Positions 1 to 14,956 of a stretch of DNA of 32,000 bases are shown one piece after another. Source of the stretch: Nostoc punctiforme PCC 73102 (GTDB taxonomy: Bacteria > Cyanobacteriota > Cyanobacteriia > Cyanobacteriales > Nostocaceae); assembly GCF_000020025.1 (NCBI RefSeq), contig NC_010628.1:7650001-7682000 (forward strand), read 5' to 3'. How positions within the stretch are numbered: the first letter of the stretch is position 1; the number at the start of each line of letters is the position of its first letter. A model generated the notes under the pieces. It saw only the letters and a list, made by a program, of their open reading frames with translations. It was not told the origin of the DNA and searched no databases. The translations under genes were made by a program, and so were the position numbers.

Positions 1-1258
1 CCACGATAACTTTGAAGGTAGAGCTATAAGCATCGCTAGTAGCAAAGCCCACAAATACCATCAATTCTGCTACGAAACCGCTCATCCCTGGCAGTGCCAA
101 AGAAGCCATTGAACAAGTGGTGAACATGGCGAAAATCTTCGGCATTCTCTTCGCAACACCGCCCATTTCATCCAACATCAGGGTGTGTGTGCGATCGTAA
201 GTTGCGCCAACCAGGAAGAACAAACTCGCCCCAATTAATCCGTGGGAAACCATTTGTAACACTGCCCCACTCAATCCCAAATCGGTGAAGGAGGCAATAC
301 CAATCATCACAAAGCCCATGTGGGAAATTGAGGAGTAGGCAATTTTCCGCTTCAGGTTGCGCTGGGCAAAGGATGTCAAAGCAGCGTAGATGATATTAAC
401 TACCCCCAAAACCACCAACACTGGTGCAAAAAGAGCGTGAGCATCAGGGAGCATTTGGGCATTCATCCGAATTAAGGCGTAACCGCCCATTTTCAAGAGA
501 ATACCTGCTAATAACATGTGTACAGGGGCTGTCGCTTCACCGTGGGCATCAGGTAGCCAGGTGTGCAACGGAATAATCGGCAACTTGACGGCGTAGGCAA
601 TCAGGAAGCCAGCATAGACGGCAAGTTGGAAATTGAGGGCAAAGTCTTTTAAACCGAGCGATCGCATGTCAAACGTCACCGTATCGCCGTAAAATCCCAT
701 TGTCAGGGCAGACAGCAAAATAAACAGCGAACCGCCTGCGGTGTATAAAATAAATTTAGTCGCTGCATACTGCCGTCTTTTGCCTCCCCAAATCGACAGC
801 AGAAAGTAGATCGGTACTAGTTCCAGTTCCCACACCAGGAAAAATAACAGCATATCCTGGACAGCGAACACGGCAATCTGACCGCCATACATAGCCAAAA
901 TCAAGAAGTAAAATAGCTTCGGCTTGAAGGTGACAGGCCAAGCTGCTAATATCGCCAGCGTGGTAATGAATCCAGTCAAAATAATTAGGGGCATAGATAA
1001 GCCATCTGCCCCTACTGACCAATTCAAATCTAGTTGGGGTACCCAGGGGTAACTCTCCACCAACTGCAAATCTGGATTGGAGAAATCATACCTAGTATAA
1101 AAAGCATAAACAATTAGTGCAAAATCGATCAGCCCTACGATGAGGGAGTACCAGCGCACTGTTTTGCCTTCTTTATCCGGGATGATGGGAATCAGTAGTG
1201 AAGCGGCTATCGGCAACAGAATAATCGTCGTCAGCCACGGAAAATTAGCTGTATTCAT
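1..1258 (-). CDS. ndhD: NAD(P)H-quinone oxidoreductase subunit 4 (NDH-1 NdhD1-type). N-terminal 419 codons; the C-terminus runs off the window.
   Basis: Absent from the ORF track because it is open at the window edge. My reverse-complement translation from the ATG at 1258 reads [39 protein letters not shown]... and is still open at position 1 (...[19 protein letters not shown]). This is a typical NdhD/NuoM-family sequence. Confidence 0.9.
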
Positions 1259-1520
1259 CACAATTCGTCTGCTATCAAAATCATGTTTGGCAAAAAGTCA
1301 CTAGTTATTAAGTAACAGCTTTTTGAGGATTTCGTCTTCCTCGTTAGGTTGATTTAATTAAATTAGCAATCCCCTATTTTTTCTCTTGAGAGTCTTTTTT
1401 GATATTTGCGGATGCGGGATGTGCGTTGTGATACTCCCAGTCAAGTCAAAAATTTACCCTAAAAAGGTTGGTAAAATTATAGTTTAGGGGTGCGATGTCT
1501 ACGACAAGCCGCTGACGCTC

Positions 1521-1560
1521 CTTCTCTGCAAGACGCTGCGCGAACGTCGCTACCGCTTCG
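1521..1560. repeat. Dispersed short repeat (CTTCTCT-N3-AGACGCT-N-CGCGAACG core); second copy at 9624-9660
   Basis: A hand alignment of 1521-1546 with 9624-9649 gives 23 of 26 identical bases. This copy also contains AGACGC...GCGTCT inverted segments. Confidence 0.55.
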
Positions 1561-1795
1561 CTAATGCGTCTACGCGTAGTCCAACCCATCGCTAAAAATA
1601 CACGATGCTGTTTGGTGGTTGTTGAAAAAAGCGATTTTGTGCAAAAAAAGCATAGCACGAGGAATAACCATAATGATAATCGCACAAATTGAAAGCCATT
1701 TTCCCGGCTTGAAAGCTTTGGGACTAGAGTAAACAATTTGATTGAGTTTTTTTTAGTAAAATAGACAGGGAAAGTTGATAAAGGAAACTCGAATT

Positions 1796-2026
1796 ATGTC
1801 ATCTCCAGCGATCGCTACTGTAATTAAGATGATGGAATCTTTATCTGAAGATGTGCAAGAAAGAGTTGCAGAACATCTCCGAGAGTACCTGGAAGATTTG
1901 CAAGATGAATTGAAATGGAGTAAATCATTTAAGAAAACTCAACAACAACTCATTGCATCTGCCCAATCCGCTAAAAGAGAAATTGCAAAAGGACTTGCAA
2001 AACCAATGAACTATGAAAATTTATGA
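1796..2026 (+). CDS. Small helical protein resembling a type II antitoxin (76 aa from the ATG at 1796; the ORF track starts at TTG 1775)
   Basis: AAGGAA lies upstream of ATG 1796. The sequence ...LSEDVQERVAEHLREYLEDLQDELKWSKSFKKTQQQLIASAQSAKREIAKGLAKPMNYENL matches the pattern I associate with cyanobacterial antitoxins partnered with RelE/ParE toxins. Its stop overlaps a downstream ATG as ATGA. Confidence 0.5.
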   Translation: MSSPAIATVIKMMESLSEDVQERVAEHLREYLEDLQDELKWSKSFKKTQQQLIASAQSAKREIAKGLAKPMNYENL

Positions 2027-2058
2027 AGTCTGCAACCCTTCCTTATTTTTGGAATTAA
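2023..2058 (+). pseudogene. 11-codon stub (MKSATLPYFWN*) in the position of a cognate toxin gene; probable truncated toxin remnant
   Basis: ATG 2023 overlaps the TGA of the upstream gene (ATGA), the usual toxin-antitoxin coupling. The frame stops at 2056-2058, exactly where the AT-rich block begins. Confidence 0.3.
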
Positions 2059-2094
2059 GATTATATTATTAATTTTTTGATATTAACTGAAAAA

Positions 2095-4092
2095 ATGGAT
2101 TTTACTTTATCAAATGCGCCTGAATATGCGATCAAAAATATTGAGAGTTTACAACAAATATGGTTGGAAAGATGCGGTGCTATTGAAAACAACCAAAAAG
2201 GATCCTATAGTCGCCATTTATTATTAATTTTACACGATTTGCGTGAAGAGATACAGAATAATAAAAATAGATTTTCTCAAAATGCTTACGGAAAAAAGTT
2301 CTTTAAAATTCAATTTTCTACTTACTGTAGTTTTAAAAAAGAACAACTTGATGATCTAGACAGAATTAGACAAATCTGGACAAGAGAAGTAGATCGAGAA
2401 CTATATTTCATTACTGAAGCTTTATCCGACAATAAAAGTAAATTTGAATTAGAGGATATTTTAATATTAATTCAACGTATAGAAGAAAAAATAACGTCAG
2501 AAAATAGCTTGAGGCAAGTTATTAATATTTTATACCAAAAACTACTTGAAAAAGACTTAAATTCTAATCAGATAGAATTTATTGTAGATATAATAATTAT
2601 ATTATTTAATTCTAAGGGAATGTTGGAGTTAGAATCAATACTAAATCATCAATTTCAAAAATTTGAAGATATAGGAACAGATCCTGAGCAAGTCCATTTA
2701 TACCCTACCCTATTTGGCTCACCATCAAGAGATGCAAAATCAGTTGATGAACATAAGGAAGAACTTAGAACATATTATGATTCTTCAAGTATTAAACAGA
2801 GACTTAACTTTTTAAGAGAAATTTATTGTCTAGAGCCTCAAACTTATAAAGTTATTTTCAAGATAACAGGTGTGGAATTCAAAAACAAAATTAATATAGG
2901 CAAAGTTGAACTATATCGTCCTAAAATAGATGGAAAATACATTAAAAAAAATGAGATTATAAGCATAACTGTTGAAGATAAGTCAGATTACTGTGTTGCA
3001 GTGGATATCCGAGGTGTAGATAGTAAATTCATGAAAATTAAAGCCCAACAAATGGCTGAAAGAACAATAGCTGTTCTCTCAACACGAAAGAGGAAAGACC
3101 AGGCTATTATTTTATCAAGTGATTGGGTTATTTGTAATTCTCAAGGAGAAATTCGAGCTTTTAGCTTTAAAGGCAGGAATAAGCCAGACACTATTAGACA
3201 TAACTCTATTGACTCGCAAAATAATCACCAAAGGCTTGGTCAGTGGATATCTTCTGAAGATATATGTCATCCAACTGTAGCAAAATGGCTTGCTTCTACC
3301 GACTGGTATAGACGAGCAACTGAAGCTTCACAAAGCACTGAAGAAATATTAAATTCCTGGTTTGCTGTAGAAAAGTTTTCTGAAGATTCTAAAATAATTT
3401 CTAAAAAACTTCCTGAACTATCAGATGCTCTTAAGAATAAAAAGAAGATTCTTAAAGAAAATATAGATTTATGGCTTGATGGTGAAGGTATTAGAACAGT
3501 ACAGTTACTTCTTACTTTGAGTGAATTAAAATTTAATTTATATCATGAAGTAAGACAAGTTGGACGTATTTTTACGACACCTCTAACATTTCCTGAAATG
3601 GATATATCTAAGTCTATAGACCAGGATTTGCAAGACTATTTATCTGCTAATAAAGATAAAATAGATTTTTTAGAAAAATTTATAGAAAAAACTCCTGAAA
3701 TAAAGAAACAATTAGATTCTAAAAACATAGTGTTGCCAGATTTAAATAAAGTCAATGAAATTTTTTATAATAATGATTATTGTGAAAAATACTTGGTTGA
3801 TAAAATTATTGACCTCAAAGATGATGTTTATAACATCTATCGTATTCGCAATATGCTAGTTCATTCTAGTAGTACTACTAGTAAACTATTAGATTATTAT
3901 GCAAAACGTAGCCGAGAGTATTGTCACTCTTTGTTAGATGCCATTGCATATAAAATATATCAGACTTCTAACGATGATGAAATTATGCCTTTGGAGTTTT
4001 ATTTTAGAGAAATGGTAATTGATGCAAATATTGCTTTAGAGGCGGTAAAAGAAAATCAAATGGACAACTTTAGGAATTGGGCTTTATCGTAA
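2095..4092 (+). CDS. Large protein of unknown family with a C-terminal HEPN-like RNxxxH motif (665 aa from ATG 2095; the track starts at TTG 2077)
   Basis: This is a long uninterrupted ORF in very AT-rich DNA. Its C-terminal segment DDVYNIYRIRNMLVHSSSTTSKLLDYY contains R-N-M-L-V-H (nt 3847-3864). The rest is not recognisable to me. Confidence 0.7.
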   Translation: MDFTLSNAPEYAIKNIESLQQIWLERCGAIENNQKGSYSRHLLLILHDLREEIQNNKNRFSQNAYGKKFFKIQFSTYCSFKKEQLDDLDRIRQIWTREVDRELYFITEALSDNKSKFELEDILILIQRIEEKITSENSLRQVINILYQKLLEKDLNSNQIEFIVDIIIILFNSKGMLELESILNHQFQKFEDIGTDPEQVHLYPTLFGSPSRDAKSVDEHKEELRTYYDSSSIKQRLNFLREIYCLEPQTYKVIFKITGVEFKNKINIGKVELYRPKIDGKYIKKNEIISITVEDKSDYCVAVDIRGVDSKFMKIKAQQMAERTIAVLSTRKRKDQAIILSSDWVICNSQGEIRAFSFKGRNKPDTIRHNSIDSQNNHQRLGQWISSEDICHPTVAKWLASTDWYRRATEASQSTEEILNSWFAVEKFSEDSKIISKKLPELSDALKNKKKILKENIDLWLDGEGIRTVQLLLTLSELKFNLYHEVRQVGRIFTTPLTFPEMDISKSIDQDLQDYLSANKDKIDFLEKFIEKTPEIKKQLDSKNIVLPDLNKVNEIFYNNDYCEKYLVDKIIDLKDDVYNIYRIRNMLVHSSSTTSKLLDYYAKRSREYCHSLLDAIAYKIYQTSNDDEIMPLEFYFREMVIDANIALEAVKENQMDNFRNWALS

Positions 4093-4285
4093 ATAATTTT
4101 AATACCTACTTTTCCGGCAAATTATACTTTTTGAATAATATATTGACCATCACTGATAGATTGATTAGGTGTCTATATGGTAGATATAATAAATATTTTC
4201 ATACCTTATATAGCAATTTTAGAGCAAATAAATTTATATAGCTTGTATTAAAAAATATTGTCATATTTTCAGAGCAAACTTTCAA

Positions 4286-4309
4286 CTCCTCTCTGTGCCT
4301 CTGCATGAG
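4286..4309. repeat. Single copy of the TCTCTG-N3-YCTCTGC short dispersed repeat
   Basis: ctcctctctgtgcctctgcatgag shares the TCTCTG-N3-CTCTGC core with both arms of the inverted pair at 28617-28690. Confidence 0.5.
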
Positions 4310-4324
4310 ATAAAAAATAATGTA

Positions 4325-4346
4325 GGGGCGGACATTTGTCCACCCC
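4325..4346 (-). terminator. Rho-independent terminator of ndhF
   Basis: On the minus strand, GGGGTGGACA-AA-TGTCCGCCCC is followed by TACATTATTTTTTATC, 9 nt after the ndhF stop. Confidence 0.8.
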
Positions 4347-4354
4347 GATTAAAA

Positions 4355-6460
4355 TCAGGTAACACCAAAAACAATCACTAAGCCCAAAACCGCCCCAAAC
4401 ACAATCAAGGCATAGAATTGAGCGCGACCGTTTTCTAGGTACTTCAGACCTTCACCGCTAACAAGGGTGAAAAAGCCTGTGAGGTTAACAGCGCCATCAA
4501 CAACGCGGAAGTCAACTTCCATAACTTGTCTAGCTACGCGACGCAAGCCGAGGACAAAAACCCGATGGTAAATTTCATCAAAGTACCACTTGTTGAGGGA
4601 TAACTCGTAAAGTGGTTGGATTTTAGCAGCGATCGCAGCCGGATCAATTTTACGGCGCAAATACATCAGCGAAGCCAGGGTAATCGCAATTAAAGAAATT
4701 CCGACTGAAGCACCCGCCATGATGTAGAATTCCGTCGGATTGAACTCGGCAGCCTTTTCTATAACTTCGGAGAGAGTTTCGCTAGGAGGAAAGATAAACT
4801 CTTCAAAATAATTGGCGTAGGGAGTTCCCACCAAACCAATCAAAATCGAAGGCACAGCCAACAGTGCCAACGGCAGCGTCATTGTCCACGGCGATTCGTG
4901 GGGGGAGTCGCTGTGATGCCCGTGGGAGTCATGGGAATCATGATGCTGACTAGTTGCCGCCAATTCTCCTTTCTTCATCGCCCCAGGCCCAAAATTTGGG
5001 ACTGGTTCTTCTGACTCTAATTCCAGGACAATTGTCGCCGCAGCTTTCTTGAGTTTTTCCTTGATTTTCTCGTCAGTACCCCGGAATTTGCCTTCAAATG
5101 TCATGAAATACATTCTGAACATGTAGAAAGCAGTAATACCGGCAGTTAGCCAGCCAATCATCCAGAGAAGTGGGTTAGCCTCAAAAGCTTTCCCTAAAAT
5201 TTCATCTTTTGACCAGAAACCAGCAAAAGGTGGAATACCAGAAATTGCCAAGCAACCAATTAAGAAGGTAGTTGCTGTGACGGGCATGTATTTCCGTAGT
5301 CCACCCATCAAGCGCATATCTTGCGCTAAGGCGGGGTCGTGTCCAACGACACCTTCCATACCGTGAATTACGGAACCTGAACCCAAGAACAGCATCGCCT
5401 TAAAATAGGCGTGGGTCATTAGGTGGAATAGTCCAGCACTGTAGGAACCTATTCCCATTGCCATCACCATGTAACCGAGTTGGGAAATGGTGGAGTAAGC
5501 CAAGCCCTTTTTGATGTCGTTTTGGGTAATGGCAATGCTAGCCCCCAAAAACGCCGTAAACGCCCCAGTAAAGGCAATGACATTCATTGCGGCTGGAACG
5601 TCTTCAAATACTGGGTACATCCGGGCAATCAGGAAAACACCCGCCGCCACCATTGTTGCCGCGTGAATCAAGGCAGAAATGGGGGTGGGGCCTTCCATCG
5701 CATCTGGTAGCCAGACGTGGAGGGGGAATTGGGCTGATTTTGCTACTGGACCTAAGAAAACTAAAATCGCAAACAGGACAGCGAGAAAATTGCTGATCGA
5801 ACCTGATTCGACAAGTTGGGCGAGGCGATCGCCCATGATATTAAAATCAAAGCTTCCTGTTGCCCAGAACAGCCCCAAAATGCCGAGTAATAGACCAAAG
5901 TCGCCCACGCGGTTGGTCACAAACGCTTTTTGAGCGGCATCTGCTGCTGACTTGCGATCGTACCAAAAACCGACCAGCAAGTAGGAACACATCCCGACCA
6001 GTTCCCAGAATATGTAAATCTGTACTAGGTTGGGGCTGACCACCAGACCTAACATTGAAGAGCCAAATAAACTGAGATAGGCGTAAAATCTTACGTAACC
6101 GGGATCGTGAGCCATGTAGCCGTCGGTGTAAACCATGACTAAGCAGGCTACCGTTGTGACAATCACCAGCATTAGGGCTGTCAGGTGGTCAATAGTGTAG
6201 CCCATGCTCAGGTGAAAATTACCTGCTGCCGCCCACTCAAAGGTGCGAAGATAAGATGCATGTCCTTGAATTTGACTCCAGAGCAAGGCAAACGACATCC
6301 CCATAGCTGCTGCCATCATGGAGATAATCACCACAGCATTAAGCTGGCGCAGGCGGTTTGTCACCTGATTCAACGAGATTAACCCTAGACCGACCAGCAT
6401 TGCCCCGAGAAGAGGGAACACCGGAATCAGCCAGGCATACTGATAGATTACTTCCATCAC
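4355..6460 (-). CDS. ndhF: NAD(P)H-quinone oxidoreductase subunit 5 (NDH-1 NdhF1-type), 701 aa
   Basis: The translation has the NuoL/NdhF hallmarks (...WELVGMCSYLLVGFWY..., ...LPDAMEGPTPISALIHAATMVAAGVFL...). Its length and long C-terminal region fit NdhF1 rather than the shorter NdhF3/F4. Confidence 0.93.
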   Translation of the reverse strand: MMEVIYQYAWLIPVFPLLGAMLVGLGLISLNQVTNRLRQLNAVVIISMMAAAMGMSFALLWSQIQGHASYLRTFEWAAAGNFHLSMGYTIDHLTALMLVIVTTVACLVMVYTDGYMAHDPGYVRFYAYLSLFGSSMLGLVVSPNLVQIYIFWELVGMCSYLLVGFWYDRKSAADAAQKAFVTNRVGDFGLLLGILGLFWATGSFDFNIMGDRLAQLVESGSISNFLAVLFAILVFLGPVAKSAQFPLHVWLPDAMEGPTPISALIHAATMVAAGVFLIARMYPVFEDVPAAMNVIAFTGAFTAFLGASIAITQNDIKKGLAYSTISQLGYMVMAMGIGSYSAGLFHLMTHAYFKAMLFLGSGSVIHGMEGVVGHDPALAQDMRLMGGLRKYMPVTATTFLIGCLAISGIPPFAGFWSKDEILGKAFEANPLLWMIGWLTAGITAFYMFRMYFMTFEGKFRGTDEKIKEKLKKAAATIVLELESEEPVPNFGPGAMKKGELAATSQHHDSHDSHGHHSDSPHESPWTMTLPLALLAVPSILIGLVGTPYANYFEEFIFPPSETLSEVIEKAAEFNPTEFYIMAGASVGISLIAITLASLMYLRRKIDPAAIAAKIQPLYELSLNKWYFDEIYHRVFVLGLRRVARQVMEVDFRVVDGAVNLTGFFTLVSGEGLKYLENGRAQFYALIVFGAVLGLVIVFGVT

Positions 6461-11116: not shown

Positions 11117-12163
11117 ATGTCTCAGAAAAACGAAACACTTAGTCTTTTCTTAGCTGTTGTTATCACCATTGGCTTAATCTTTAGTGGCTTATGGTTTTTT
11201 ATGGAACGGTGGGCACAACTAAATGGAACTGCTGCTAAATCTTCGGGGACTAACAATACAGATAATCCGATAAACCAGTTTATTAGTAGTAAATGTAACG
11301 TGCCCAACCTCTTAGAAGGGACATTCAACTATGGTGGTAGCACAACTTGGGCACCCATTCGTAAAGATGTAGACTCCGTACTAGAAAGCCAGTGCCCTCG
11401 GTTTATTTTACGTTACACTCAACCTCCATCAGGTAATGCAGGATCTGGAACTGGGATTCGGATGTTGATAGACAATCAACTAGCTTTTTCTCAATCTTCT
11501 CGTTCAGTAAAGGCTGAAGAAAATGCCGAAGCTCAACAAAAAGGATTTAGTTTGAAAGAAATTCCAGTAGCGATTGATGGAATTGCGATCGCTGTCAATC
11601 ACGATCTCAACATCCCTGGTTTAACTGTGGCTCAACTCAAAGACATCTACACAGGCAAAATTACTAATTGGCAACAGGTGGGTGGGTCAAATTTACCAAT
11701 TAAAGCTTACTCTCGTAGCGAAGAAGCTGGGGGTACAGTAGAATTCTTTGTCGAAAATGTTCTAAATAAAGAAAAGTTTGGTGCCAATATTAATTATGTT
11801 GGCACGACCACTGAAGCAGTACGAAAAGTAGCTGCAAATCCTGGGGGAATTTATTATGCTTCTGCCCCAGAAGTTGTACCTCAGTGTATTATTAAAACCA
11901 TACCACTGGGACGCACAAGCAGTCAATTAGTGCCTCCTTACCAACAACCGTTTGTATCTCCATCTCAATGTCCCAGTAAACGCAATCAATTGAATAGTCA
12001 GGCATTTCGTAGTGGAGATTATGCAATTACTCGCAATTTATTTGTAATTATTAAACAGAATGGTCAAACAGATCAGCAAGCTGGCGAAGCTTATGCAAAT
12101 TGGCTTCTGACACCTCAGAGTCAAGACCTGATTGAAAAGGCTGGATTTGTCAAAATTAAATGA
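11117..12163 (+). CDS. Membrane-anchored PstS-like (PBP type 2) solute-binding protein, paralog 1
   Basis: 348 aa, starting MSQKNET plus a TM helix. PstS-family-like segments follow (FNYGGSTTWAPIR, GSGTGI, AFSQSSR, IAIAVN, QLKDIYTGKITNWQQVGG). No pstCAB genes lie nearby. Confidence 0.8.
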   Translation: MSQKNETLSLFLAVVITIGLIFSGLWFFMERWAQLNGTAAKSSGTNNTDNPINQFISSKCNVPNLLEGTFNYGGSTTWAPIRKDVDSVLESQCPRFILRYTQPPSGNAGSGTGIRMLIDNQLAFSQSSRSVKAEENAEAQQKGFSLKEIPVAIDGIAIAVNHDLNIPGLTVAQLKDIYTGKITNWQQVGGSNLPIKAYSRSEEAGGTVEFFVENVLNKEKFGANINYVGTTTEAVRKVAANPGGIYYASAPEVVPQCIIKTIPLGRTSSQLVPPYQQPFVSPSQCPSKRNQLNSQAFRSGDYAITRNLFVIIKQNGQTDQQAGEAYANWLLTPQSQDLIEKAGFVKIK

Positions 12164-13909: not shown

Positions 13910-14956
13910 ATGTCTCAAAAAAATGAAACAACTATTCTTGTTTTATCCATCCTAATCACAGCCGGGTTAATAGCTGGCGGTTTTTGGTGGTTTAGTAGAA
14001 GGTCTGGTGTTAACCTAAATTCAATTAATTCTGATGGCACTAAAACACCCCAGGCTGTATTAGAACAACCTAGTGGCAAGACTTTCGCCTCAATACAAGA
14101 TGTTCCTACAGGGTTATTCAATTATGGAGGTAGTACATCTTGGGCACCGATTCGCTTGGTAGTTGATTCACCAATTCAAGCGGCGCGACCAGAGTTTCGG
14201 CTGCGTTATGTAGAACCCAGTAATGCATCTCCTGGAACTGGTACTGGCATCCAGTCACTGATAGACGGTCAGCTAGCCTTTGCCCAGTCTTCCCGACCAC
14301 TTCTCGATCAGGAATTAAGCCGCGCCCAGCAGCGTGGATTCAGTTTGAAACAAATTCCTGTAGCTATTGATGGTTTAGCAGTCGCAGTTAACCCCAACCT
14401 CAAAATCTCAGGACTGACTGTAGACCAATTAAAGTCAATTTACACAGGCAAAATCAATAATTGGAGCCAGGTGGGTGGCCCCAATATCCCGATTAAGCCC
14501 TATTCTCGCCGCATTGCTGATGGCGGTACTGTAGAGCTTTTTGTCCAAGACATCTTGGGTGGTCAAGCTTTTAGCCCCAATGTGGAATTTGTCTCCACAA
14601 CCACCCAAGCCTTGCAAAAATTGGCTGGTAGTTCTGGTGGTATTTACTACGCTTCTGCCCCAGAAGTGATTCCTCAATGTTCAATCAAACCCTTACCGTT
14701 GGGGCGAGCACAAGGGCAATATATTGCTCCTTACCAAGAAACATTTGTCCTCCCGTCTGAATGTCCTGGTAAACGGAACAAATTGAATATTGAGGCTTTC
14801 CAATCAGGAAAATACCCGATTACCCGAAATCTGTTTGTGGTGGTCAAACAGAATGGTCAGACTGAGCAGCAAGCAGGTGTCGCTTACGCCAACTTACTGC
14901 TGACTGAGCAGGGACAGGAATTGATTACCCAAGCTGGATTTGTCAAAATTCGCTGA
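13910..14956 (+). CDS. Membrane-anchored PstS-like solute-binding protein, paralog 2
   Basis: 348 aa, colinear with and clearly paralogous to 11117-12163 (FNYGGSTSWAPIR ... FVKIR), with the same MSQKNET plus TM start. Confidence 0.8.
   Translation: MSQKNETTILVLSILITAGLIAGGFWWFSRRSGVNLNSINSDGTKTPQAVLEQPSGKTFASIQDVPTGLFNYGGSTSWAPIRLVVDSPIQAARPEFRLRYVEPSNASPGTGTGIQSLIDGQLAFAQSSRPLLDQELSRAQQRGFSLKQIPVAIDGLAVAVNPNLKISGLTVDQLKSIYTGKINNWSQVGGPNIPIKPYSRRIADGGTVELFVQDILGGQAFSPNVEFVSTTTQALQKLAGSSGGIYYASAPEVIPQCSIKPLPLGRAQGQYIAPYQETFVLPSECPGKRNKLNIEAFQSGKYPITRNLFVVVKQNGQTEQQAGVAYANLLLTEQGQELITQAGFVKIR

What the first reader, a model, noticed from the sequence alone, without database searches (positions are those of the whole stretch)
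2040..4290. AT-rich, HIP1-free insertion between ndhF1 and ndhD1 encoding one 665-aa protein with a C-terminal RNxxxH (HEPN-type) motif: candidate single-gene defence or toxin module
Seen in the sequence: the block is much more AT-rich than its flanks. Two 60-nt lines counted by hand gave 28% and 18% G+C, against 45% for a line inside ndhF. The block holds no GCGATCGC copy, although about thirty occur elsewhere in the window. It is wedged between two core NDH-1 genes on the opposite strand, and ndhF keeps its own intact terminator at 4325-4346. The only long ORF (2095-4092) matches no family I can name. Near its C-terminus it reads DDVYNIYRIRNMLVHSSS (R-N-M-L-V-H at nt 3847-3864). Established knowledge: Rx4-6H, often RNxxxH, is the catalytic signature of HEPN RNases found in Abi proteins, Cas13, Csm6/Csx1 and type II toxins. 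Inference: this is a horizontally acquired stand-alone HEPN effector whose roughly 550-aa N-terminal part could be the sensor. No transposase, integrase, CRISPR array or obvious partner gene accompanies it.
Basis: partly seen in the sequence, partly recalled or inferred. Interest (0 to 1): 0.85.

Follow-up and report, generated by a model that had tools for sequence, protein, structure and literature searches.

The report
Divergent ApeA anti-phage RNase in Nostoc

Summary
Window 2062-4311 is the most AT-rich stretch of the 32 kb (28.9% GC; median 40.3%). It holds one intact ORF (2095-4092, +, 665 aa) between ndhD and ndhF, with RNMLVH at nt 3847-3864. The lack of HIP1 sites is not significant alone (P about 0.065).

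The protein is not an orphan. It belongs to a 32-cluster Nostocales family within a superfamily of mostly 600-660-aa proteins. That superfamily's profile matches solved E. coli ApeA structures (E = 2.7e-23). Full-length HHalign links hold at both steps, and the direct comparison with Ec2ApeA gives 95.8%. Domain order matches ApeA. R585, N586 and H590 (Ec2ApeA R502, N503, H507) are invariant in 77 of 77 sequences. Pfam and PADLOC miss it because their models are narrow.

The gene is accessory. Among 30 ndhF-ndhD gaps measured in Nostocales and close relatives, one holds it intact and one holds a deletion scar. Other species carry NACHT, methyltransferase-HEPN or kinase genes there. Its low GC in every host and ndhF-scale synonymous divergence argue against recent arrival.

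Most likely function: a ligand-activated HEPN RNase that blocks cyanophage. Activity, oligomeric state and ligand are untested, and Foldseek fold searches were inconclusive. Verdict: new member of a known kind, with modest interest.

The parts
2062..4311 (.). AT-rich accessory block in the ndhD-ndhF gap (28.9% GC)
   Evidence: Left edge: Nostoc L010 matches the window up to 2061 and then lacks the gene. Right edge: sequence conserved downstream of ndhF resumes at about 4312 in most Nostoc loci. Lowest-GC 2250-nt window of the 32 kb. No bounding repeats.
2095..4092 (+). ApeA-like gene, 665 aa, intact. DNA shared between unrelated genomic contexts covers only about 2067-4114, the ORF plus 20-30 nt on each side.
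   Evidence: dN/dS 0.36-0.55 against orthologues. Homology to ApeA.
2095..2793 (+). N-terminal helical domain (residues 1-233), equivalent to Ec2ApeA 1-198. In ApeA this domain forms half of the ligand pocket.
   Evidence: AF2 model helices 10-244. HHalign chain mapping. Residues G36, Y38, S39, R40, E52 are invariant in the family.
2794..3177 (+). Mid alpha/beta domain (residues 234-361), equivalent to Ec2ApeA 199-309
   Evidence: Strands at 249-258, 266-274, 300-307, 339-347 and 353-357 in the AF2 model. Direct HHalign to Ec2ApeA starts here. Mapping.
3241..4089 (+). Split HEPN domain (residues 383-665), equivalent to Ec2ApeA HEPN_ApeA 335-583
   Evidence: Domain-only AF2 model has pLDDT 83.5 and pTM 0.84, all helical.
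3358..3372 (+). Conserved helix residues W422-E426 (LNSWFAVEKF), equivalent to Ec2ApeA W367/E371. I take this helix to be HEPN H1.
   Evidence: W and E are invariant in 77 of 77 superfamily sequences. In the 24-member Nostocales family, E426 is E in 22 and D in 2.
3841..3864 (+). Catalytic motif R583-I-R585-N586-M-L-V-H590, equivalent to Ec2ApeA R500, R502, N503, H507
   Evidence: R585, N586 and H590 are invariant in 77 of 77 sequences; R583 is R in 72 of 77. Ec2ApeA R502A and Ec1ApeA R521A abolish defence (10.64898/2026.01.26.701840).
4325..4346 (-). Context only: intrinsic-terminator-like hairpin of ndhF, conserved across Nostoc loci
4355..6460 (-). Context only: ndhF (701 aa)
2..1258 (-). 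Context only: ndhD (5' 419 codons; cut by the window start)
   Evidence: tblastn, 97% identity to the L001 ndhD.

Best explanation
The ORF at 2095-4092 encodes a divergent cyanobacterial member of the ApeA family of single-protein anti-phage defences.

By homology it has three domains. An N-terminal helical domain and a C-terminal split HEPN domain together form a sensor pocket, and a Mid alpha/beta domain lies between them. The HEPN active site is R583/R585/N586/H590.

The likely mechanism, inferred from characterised E. coli ApeA proteins, runs as follows. HEPN domains pair to build a composite RNase site, possibly within a ring of dimers. The enzyme stays idle until an infection-derived ligand binds the pocket. 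It then cuts RNA, either host tRNA anticodon loops (abortive infection) or phage RNA, and this halts cyanophage multiplication.

The pocket-equivalent residues are conserved inside the Nostocales clade but differ chemically from Ec2ApeA. The activating ligand is therefore probably not the 5'-phosphorylated deoxydinucleotide that Ec2ApeA senses.

Shown here: homology, domain order, motif conservation, accessory distribution and purifying selection. Inferred: RNase activity, oligomeric state, ligand activation, RNA target and phage defence.
For: Homology to ApeA:
- The Nostocales family profile finds 227 representatives at E <= 1e-3, many of 600-660 aa and matched along most of their length.
- The superfamily profile hits solved ApeA structures: Ec2ApeA 9HXI at E = 2.7e-23, and Ec1, Ec3 and Ec4 at 1e-17 to 1e-19.
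- HHalign, Nostocales profile against intermediates-only profile: 100%, E = 1.2e-49, 606 columns.
- HHalign, intermediates-only profile against Ec2ApeA: 99.1%, E = 1.2e-18, 534 columns. Reversed and shuffled controls give nothing.
- HHalign, Nostocales profile directly against Ec2ApeA: 95.8%, E = 7.6e-9, 343 columns.

Architecture and motifs:
- The AF2 model (pLDDT 78) has helical, alpha/beta and helical regions in the ApeA order, and the mapped boundaries agree with them.
- RNxxxH and the W/E helix are invariant in 77 of 77 sequences.

Accessory, single-gene behaviour:
- Only the ORF is shared between different genomic contexts.
- The gene lies beside toxin-antitoxin islands or an integrase in other genomes.
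- The ndhF-ndhD gap holds other defence-type cargo in other species.
- dN/dS is 0.36-0.55.

ApeA mechanism: 10.64898/2026.01.26.701840 and 10.64898/2026.03.20.713152.
Against: - Curated ApeA models do not recognise the protein: PADLOC ApeA, Pfam and NCBIfam give no hit. Calibration weakens this point, because validated Ec2ApeA reaches PADLOC ApeA only at 1.5e-11 and hits no Pfam HEPN model.
- Plain HMMER of the Nostocales profile against Ec2ApeA is only borderline (E = 0.013 with filters off; no hit with default filters).
- Foldseek of the whole model and of the C-terminal domain against PDB found no significant match. Neither ApeA nor HepT appears among the 50 best matches shown for each search.
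- Residues equivalent to Ec2ApeA's pocket, regulatory loop and ring interface are mostly not conserved.
- No experiment exists for any cyanobacterial member.
Confidence: 0.8

Rival explanations
1. It is the toxin of a type II toxin-antitoxin pair, with the 83-aa ORF at 1775-2026 as its antitoxin, in the manner of HEPN/MNT (HepT-MntA) modules.
For: A small same-strand ORF lies 68 nt upstream. HEPN toxins with small partners are common (PMC3710099). Homologues sit next to toxin-antitoxin islands in Dolichospermum.
Against: - The small ORF occurs only in close Nostoc relatives. It is absent upstream of the gene in Nodularia, Anabaena, Dolichospermum, Cylindrospermum and L008.
- It also occurs without the gene, in L010-L012 and L022.
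- DNA shared between contexts starts at about 2067, after the small ORF.
- ApeA works as a single gene (10.64898/2026.01.26.701840).
Confidence: 0.04
2. It is a HEPN protein that shares only the catalytic domain with ApeA, has unrelated N-terminal parts, and works by a different mechanism or has a different role.
For: The direct HHalign match to Ec2ApeA covers only the Mid and HEPN domains. N-terminal similarity in the HMMER alignment is weak (14.7 bits). Pocket residues differ.
Against: Both steps of the HHalign chain are full-length and include the N-terminal domain. Lengths and domain order are the same throughout the superfamily.
Confidence: 0.08
3. It is a decaying or silent remnant with no current function.
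For: Several homologues are truncated (390-529 aa). L014 keeps only an 88-nt scar. dN/dS is higher than for ndhF. No strong promoter is evident directly upstream of the ORF.
Against: The ORF is full length and aligns end to end with 23 intact homologues. dN/dS is 0.36-0.55, well below 1. Catalytic residues are invariant.
Confidence: 0.05
4. It is a housekeeping RNA-processing enzyme functionally tied to the NDH-1 genes it sits between.
For: It lies next to ndhF in three genera: Nostoc, Anabaena and Cylindrospermum.
Against: - Only one of 30 measured ndhF-ndhD gaps holds it intact.
- It lies elsewhere in Nodularia, Dolichospermum and L008.
- Only 32 clusters were found in 5.8 billion proteins.
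- It is on the opposite strand to ndhF, which has its own terminator.
Confidence: 0.02

Closest known systems
ApeA (Ec1ApeA to Ec4ApeA of E. coli; PDB 9HXB-9HXN; first described according to the two 2026 preprints in a large defence-system screen; mechanism in 10.64898/2026.01.26.701840 and 10.64898/2026.03.20.713152)
   Same: - Single gene of about 600-665 aa.
- Same order of N-terminal helical, Mid alpha/beta and split HEPN domains.
- Same extended motif, IYRxRNxxVH, and the same LLNxWxxxE helix.
- Full-length profile-profile homology.
- Accessory distribution at variable loci.
   Different: - About 15% identity to Ec2ApeA in the superfamily alignment.
- Missed by PADLOC, Pfam and NCBIfam.
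- The cyanobacterial host is not mentioned in either ApeA paper or in their held supplements.
- Pocket-equivalent residues differ: Ec2 R148, R152 and R490 become E161, D165 and D/E573.
- Ec2's ring-interface and regulatory-loop residues are not conserved.
- About 70-80 residues longer than Ec2ApeA.
- Oligomeric state, ligand and RNA target are unknown.
HepT, the minimal HEPN toxin of HepT-MntA (PDB 5YEP, 7AE8)
   Same: Rx4-6H HEPN RNase. The ApeA authors report it as the closest structural relative of ApeA's HEPN core. HEPN domains dimerise to form a composite active site.
   Different: HepT is a small single-domain toxin neutralised by the MntA antitoxin. This protein has no conserved partner, has two extra domains and has large insertions in the HEPN domain. 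Neither sequence nor Foldseek searches here matched HepT.
PrrC/RloC anticodon nucleases and Csm6/Csx1 (ligand-activated HEPN RNases)
   Same: HEPN effector held inactive until an infection signal arrives. PrrC targets tRNA anticodon loops, and Csm6/Csx1 are activated by small nucleotides.
   Different: Their sensor domains are different (ABC ATPase; CARF) and they depend on partner systems (restriction-modification; type III CRISPR). No homology outside the HEPN motif was detected here.

Membership tests
ApeA | Detectable sequence homology to experimentally validated ApeA over most of the length | tested here: met
   Superfamily profile against PDB ApeA chains, E = 2.7e-23. HHalign chain: 100% (E = 1.2e-49, 606 columns) and 99.1% (E = 1.2e-18, 534 columns), with clean controls. 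Direct HHalign 95.8%. Plain HMMER direct is only borderline, E = 0.013.
ApeA | Single-gene system of about 600 aa with no obligate partner | tested here: met
   665 aa. Only the ORF plus 20-30 nt on each side is shared between six different genomic contexts. The upstream 83-aa ORF does not co-occur with it.
ApeA | Three-domain architecture: N-terminal helical, Mid alpha/beta, C-terminal split HEPN | tested here: met
   AF2 secondary structure and HHalign boundary mapping: 1-233, 234-361, 383-665. This is agreement in secondary structure and alignment, not a 3D superposition.
ApeA | Conserved HEPN motif RNxxxH, whose arginine is essential (Ec2 R502, Ec1 R521) | tested here: met
   R585, N586 and H590 are invariant in 24 of 24 family and 77 of 77 superfamily sequences, and align to Ec2 R502, N503 and H507.
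ApeA | Recognition by curated ApeA models (PADLOC PDLC02157; Pfam HEPN_Apea and Apea_NTD1) | tested here: not met
   No hit. The models are narrow, however. Validated Ec2ApeA scores only 1.5e-11 on PADLOC ApeA and hits no Pfam HEPN family, and only 7 of 77 superfamily members touch PADLOC ApeA.
ApeA | Conserved ligand pocket between the N-terminal and HEPN domains, with a consensus resembling Ec2ApeA | tested here: inconclusive
   Equivalent positions are conserved within the Nostocales clade (Y38, Q73, K570, D577, R605, Y609) but mostly differ from Ec2ApeA; only Y525 = Y609 is the same. N-terminal alignment at this distance is uncertain, and model coordinates could not be inspected.
ApeA | Ring-shaped decamer or dodecamer of HEPN dimers | not testable with these tools
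   Only monomer prediction is available. Ec2 interface residues are not conserved, except that R551 aligns with R638, which is invariant in the clade.
ApeA | Infection-activated RNA cleavage (tRNA anticodon loops or phage RNA) and phage protection | not testable with these tools
   Needs experiments.
HEPN superfamily | Rx4-6H motif on a conserved helix | tested here: met
   RNMLVH lies at the end of helix 560-588.
HEPN superfamily | Four-helix HEPN core shown by structure comparison | tested here: inconclusive
Type II toxin-antitoxin (HEPN-MNT type) | Conserved adjacent antitoxin gene | tested here: not met

The most novel reading that the evidence does not exclude
The Nostocales clade may be an ApeA lineage that senses a different class of infection signal. 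Its pocket-equivalent positions are strongly conserved within the clade. But the basic, phosphate-binding residues of Ec2ApeA (R148, R152, R490) are replaced by acidic ones (E161, D165, D/E573). If that mapping is right, the activator would not be a 5'-phosphorylated deoxydinucleotide. It could be a positively charged or non-nucleotide product of cyanophage infection. That would widen the known range of ApeA triggers and give a single-gene, ligand-gated defence to study in multicellular cyanobacteria.
Probability: 0.25. Interest if true: 0.5.

Novelty: new member of a known kind. Interest (0 to 1): 0.3.

Why it matters
- **Annotation gap.** A defence gene that standard annotation (Pfam, NCBIfam, PADLOC 2.0) labels 'hypothetical' can be assigned to ApeA by profile-profile methods. 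That adds a Nostocales clade, and a superfamily of more than 200 representative clusters, that defence-system surveys probably undercount.
- **Trigger diversity.** Ec1ApeA and Ec2ApeA already respond to different cues. A clade with a differently charged pocket is a natural place to look for a third cue.
- **Insertion hotspot.** The ndhF-ndhD gap in Nostoc and its relatives takes up defence-type cargo, which may help in finding further cyanobacterial immunity genes.
- **Limits.** None of this overturns current understanding. It extends a known family to a new host group.

Tried and rejected
**Searches that gave nothing**
- Pfam, NCBIfam, PADLOC and PHROGs on the protein itself: no significant hit.
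- phmmer of the protein, and hmmsearch of the Nostocales profile, against PDB sequences: nothing.
- A second homologous-protein search with the superfamily alignment returned only the same 32 close relatives.
- Foldseek against PDB with the whole model and with the C-terminal domain: no significant match.
- Rfam on 1200-4500: nothing.
- Repeat search for ends of a mobile element: only AT-rich chance matches.

**Ideas considered and rejected**
- The 83-aa upstream ORF as an antitoxin or partner: it does not co-occur with the gene.
- Lack of HIP1 as independent evidence of foreign origin: not significant.
- Low GC as evidence of recent transfer: the gene is 27-29% GC in every host.
- A role tied to NDH-1: the gene is absent from most ndhF-ndhD gaps.

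**One error corrected**
- My first residue mapping through the HHalign output had an off-by-one fault, because '.' gap characters were counted as residues. It was corrected and passed a sanity check.
Full report
**1. The observation**

The sequence features are as described.
- ORF 2095-4092 (+) is intact and encodes 665 aa. It ends in ...DDVYNIYRIRNMLVHSSS..., with R585-H590 at nt 3847-3864.
- GC falls to 24-37% across 2100-4350, against 44-51% inside ndhF.
- The block 2062-4311 is 28.9% GC, the lowest of all 2250-nt windows in the 32 kb. The median is 40.3% and the next lowest non-overlapping window is 36.0%. GC3 is 0.20 against 0.52 for ndhF.
- The window has 31 HIP1 sites (GCGATCGC), with none between 1815 and 4629.
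- That HIP1 gap is weak evidence alone. A 2734-nt gap occurs elsewhere in the window, and a Poisson estimate gives P about 0.065.
- ndhF lies at 4355-6460 (-). Its terminator-like hairpin lies at 4346-4325 (-).
- ndhD occupies 2-1258 (-) and is cut by the window start.

**2. The protein is not an orphan**

Direct scans gave nothing significant. This covers Pfam, NCBIfam, PADLOC and PHROGs, and a sequence search of PDB.

The large protein collection holds 32 clusters of homologues at 47-92% identity. All named ones come from Nostocales (Nostoc, Nodularia, Anabaena, Dolichospermum, Cylindrospermum). All are labelled hypothetical and none has a Pfam domain.

In an alignment of 24 full-length members, the C-terminal ~100 residues are the most conserved part. 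YNIYRIRNMLVHS is invariant.

A profile of that alignment was searched against 1.84 billion representatives.
- It found 227 proteins at E <= 1e-3 and 118 at E <= 1e-10.
- Many are 600-660 aa and match along most of their length.
- Essentially all of the roughly 100 full-length ones carry [IL]-Y-R-x-R-N-x-[IV]-V-H about 70-100 residues from the C-terminus.
- Those with a source name come from Bacteroidota, Clostridium perfringens and Halobacteriovoraceae. Two are called 'HEPN domain-containing protein' by NCBI.

**3. Identification as ApeA**

A 41-sequence superfamily profile matches solved PDB structures of the 'bacterial antiviral defense protein ApeA'.
- Ec2ApeA (9HXI) matches at E = 2.7e-23. 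Profile positions 272-639 align with chain residues 233-571, and there is a weaker N-terminal match.
- Ec4, Ec1 and Ec3 ApeA match at 1e-19 to 1e-17.
- The alignment places IYRxRNxIVH on Ec2ApeA's IYRTR502NLIVH507. It places LLNYWIxIE on LLNLW367IAIE371.

The superfamily profile mixes close and distant sequences, so I tested each link separately.
- Nostocales-only profile against a profile of 68 intermediates, with no cyanobacterial-clade sequences and no ApeA: HHalign 100%, E = 1.2e-49, 606 columns.
- The same intermediates-only profile against Ec2ApeA: 99.1%, E = 1.2e-18, 534 columns.
- Reversed and shuffled Ec2ApeA: nothing.
- Nostocales profile directly against Ec2ApeA: 95.8%, E = 7.6e-9, over the Mid and HEPN domains.
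- Plain HMMER on that direct comparison is only borderline (E = 0.013 with filters off).

The homology is therefore real and full-length but remote. The window protein is 15% identical to Ec2ApeA in the superfamily alignment.

**4. Why standard tools miss it**

Ec2ApeA has been validated experimentally. Yet it reaches PADLOC's ApeA model only at E = 1.5e-11, and it hits no Pfam HEPN family. Only 7 of the 77 superfamily sequences touch the PADLOC model at E <= 0.1. The curated models cover a narrow part of the family.

**5. Architecture**

The AF2 model of the full protein (pLDDT 78.3, pTM 0.61) shows three regions.
- Residues 10-244 are helical.
- Residues 249-357 form an alpha/beta region.
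- Residues 375-664 are helical. The motif sits at the end of helix 560-588.

A model of the C-terminal domain alone has pLDDT 83.5 and pTM 0.84.

Mapping through the two HHalign alignments gives these boundaries:

| Ec2ApeA domain | Ec2ApeA residues | Window residues |
|---|---|---|
| N-terminal | 1-198 | about 1-233 |
| Mid | 199-309 | 234-361 |
| HEPN_ApeA | 335-583 | 383-665 |

These agree with the predicted secondary structure.

Conservation of functional residues:
- R585, N586, H590 and W422 are invariant in 77 of 77 sequences.
- E426 is also invariant in those 77. It is D in two Nostocales members outside that set.
- Pocket-equivalent positions are conserved within the clade: Y38 in 24 of 24, Q73 in 21, K570 in 21, D577 in 22, R605 in 22 and Y609 in 24.
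- These residues mostly differ from Ec2ApeA. The phosphate-binding R148, R152 and R490 correspond to E161, D165 and D/E573.
- Ec2's regulatory-loop and ring-interface residues are not conserved.
- The N-terminal mapping is uncertain at this level of divergence.

**6. Fold test**

Foldseek against PDB gave best E = 0.26, both with the whole model and with the C-terminal domain. No HEPN protein appears among the 50 best matches shown for each search.

The 9HX* ApeA entries do not appear in those lists either. They may be missing from that fold library, which holds entries released up to 8 April 2026. I could not check this.

**7. Genomic behaviour**

The gene's location varies between genomes.
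- It lies in the same ndhD-ndhF gap in a Nostoc relative (88% identity) and in Cylindrospermum (51%).
- It lies next to ndhF in Anabaena cylindrica (64%).
- In Nodularia it lies next to leuA.
- In Dolichospermum it lies next to a toxin-antitoxin island.
- In L008 it lies near an integrase.

I collected 80 ndhF loci, one genome per species. Most cyanobacteria have ndhF and ndhD adjacent, with gaps of about 15-600 nt. In Nostoc and its relatives the gap ranges from 236 nt to 6.7 kb.

Of 30 gaps measured:
- One holds the intact gene (L013).
- One holds only an 88-nt internal fragment, joined directly to the region downstream of ndhF. This is a deletion scar (L014).
- L016 has a partial copy at a contig end.

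Other species carry different cargo in the gap:
- NACHT NTPases (L015, L034);
- an N6-methyltransferase next to a Swt1-like HEPN protein (L020);
- a PDC-S28 fragment (L032);
- sensor kinases (L014, L026, L030);
- a DDE transposase (L015).

DNA shared between unrelated contexts covers only about 2067-4114, the ORF plus 20-30 nt on each side. No repeats bound the block.

The 83-aa upstream ORF occurs both with and without the gene. It is not a partner.

**8. Age and selection**

- The gene is 27-29% GC in every host, 9-15 points below its surroundings.
- dS against same-site orthologues is 0.10-0.85, comparable to ndhF's 0.20-0.78 in the same genome pairs.
- dN/dS is 0.36-0.55, against 0.07-0.11 for ndhF.

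The gene is thus under purifying but relaxed selection. It has probably been in these lineages for a long time, with repeated loss and some relocation. It is not a recent arrival.

**9. Mechanism**

This section rests on the literature for E. coli ApeA, not on tests here.

From 10.64898/2026.01.26.701840:
- ApeA dimerises through its HEPN domains and assembles into decameric or dodecameric rings.
[quoted passage not shown] For Ec2ApeA this is a 5'-phosphorylated deoxydinucleotide ending in G; for Ec1ApeA it is unknown.
- The activated enzyme cuts tRNA anticodon loops, which gives abortive infection.
- R502A in Ec2ApeA, or R521A in Ec1ApeA, abolishes defence.

From 10.64898/2026.03.20.713152:
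- Ec1ApeA can also cut ssRNA-phage genomes without killing the cell.

I infer the same logic for the Nostoc protein, probably with a different ligand.

**10. Verdict**

The protein belongs to a family that is already known and mechanistically characterised.

Neither ApeA paper, nor the supplements held here, mentions cyanobacterial members. So this is a new, divergent member of a known kind.

Interest is modest. The main open point is what the differently composed pocket senses.

Noticed in passing
window 1775-2026 (+) and 2023-2058 (+): An 83-aa ORF (36% GC, carrying a HIP1 site at 1808) whose stop codon overlaps the ATG of an 11-codon ORF (MKSATLPYFWN*). This may be an orphan antitoxin-like gene with the stub of a lost toxin gene. 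It occurs with the ApeA-like gene (L001, L013) and without it (L010-L012, L022). It has no significant Pfam, PADLOC or PHROGs hit.
   Followed up: partly
window 1573-1698; also L023 13517-13645 and 14596-14700: A ~125-nt sequence recurs in the ndhF-ndhD gap of many Nostoc genomes and is present twice in L023. No Rfam family matches it. It overlaps a probably spurious 96-aa ORF on the minus strand.
   Followed up: partly
ndhF-ndhD gaps of L014, L015, L018, L020, L024, L026, L030, L032, L034: In Nostoc and its relatives the gap is an insertion hotspot with different cargo in each species: NACHT NTPases, an N6-methyltransferase next to a Swt1-like HEPN protein (PDC-M34B), a PDC-S28 fragment, MASE1 and PAS histidine kinases, a DDE transposase, and two unassigned ORFs (420 and 368 aa).
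   Followed up: partly
L014 12205-12292: An 88-nt internal fragment of the ApeA-like gene (window 2966-3053, 91% identical) is joined directly to the region downstream of ndhF (window 4246-4400). This is a deletion scar showing that the gene was once there and was lost.
   Followed up: yes
Superfamily alignment A3; Ec2ApeA residues 342-381: Pfam MauJ (PF17419) gives sub-threshold hits in 24 of 77 superfamily members. In Ec2ApeA the hit falls on the conserved W/E helix region of the HEPN domain. This hints that MauJ proteins may be related to HEPN.
   Followed up: no
window 2095-4092 against L001 and L013: Synonymous divergence of the ApeA-like gene between close Nostoc genomes (0.105-0.119) is about half that of the adjacent ndhF (0.20-0.22). 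This could reflect recent exchange of the gene between strains. It could equally be an artefact of its extreme AT bias on the Nei-Gojobori estimate.
   Followed up: no
window 11117-12163 and 13910-14956 (+): Two paralogous PBP_like_2 periplasmic-binding-protein genes, 58% identical. Each is preceded by a 466-aa ORF. The first of these is a Ser/Thr protein kinase. The second shows no similarity to the first.
   Followed up: partly
P0040 (Bacteroidota MAG); P0007, P0011, P0019-P0023: The closest named relative outside cyanobacteria that shares the extended YNIYRIRNMLVH motif comes from a Bacteroidota MAG. Several Nostoc homologues are truncated (390-529 aa), including one in the complete Nostoc sp. 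GT001 genome. These may be pseudogenes.
   Followed up: no
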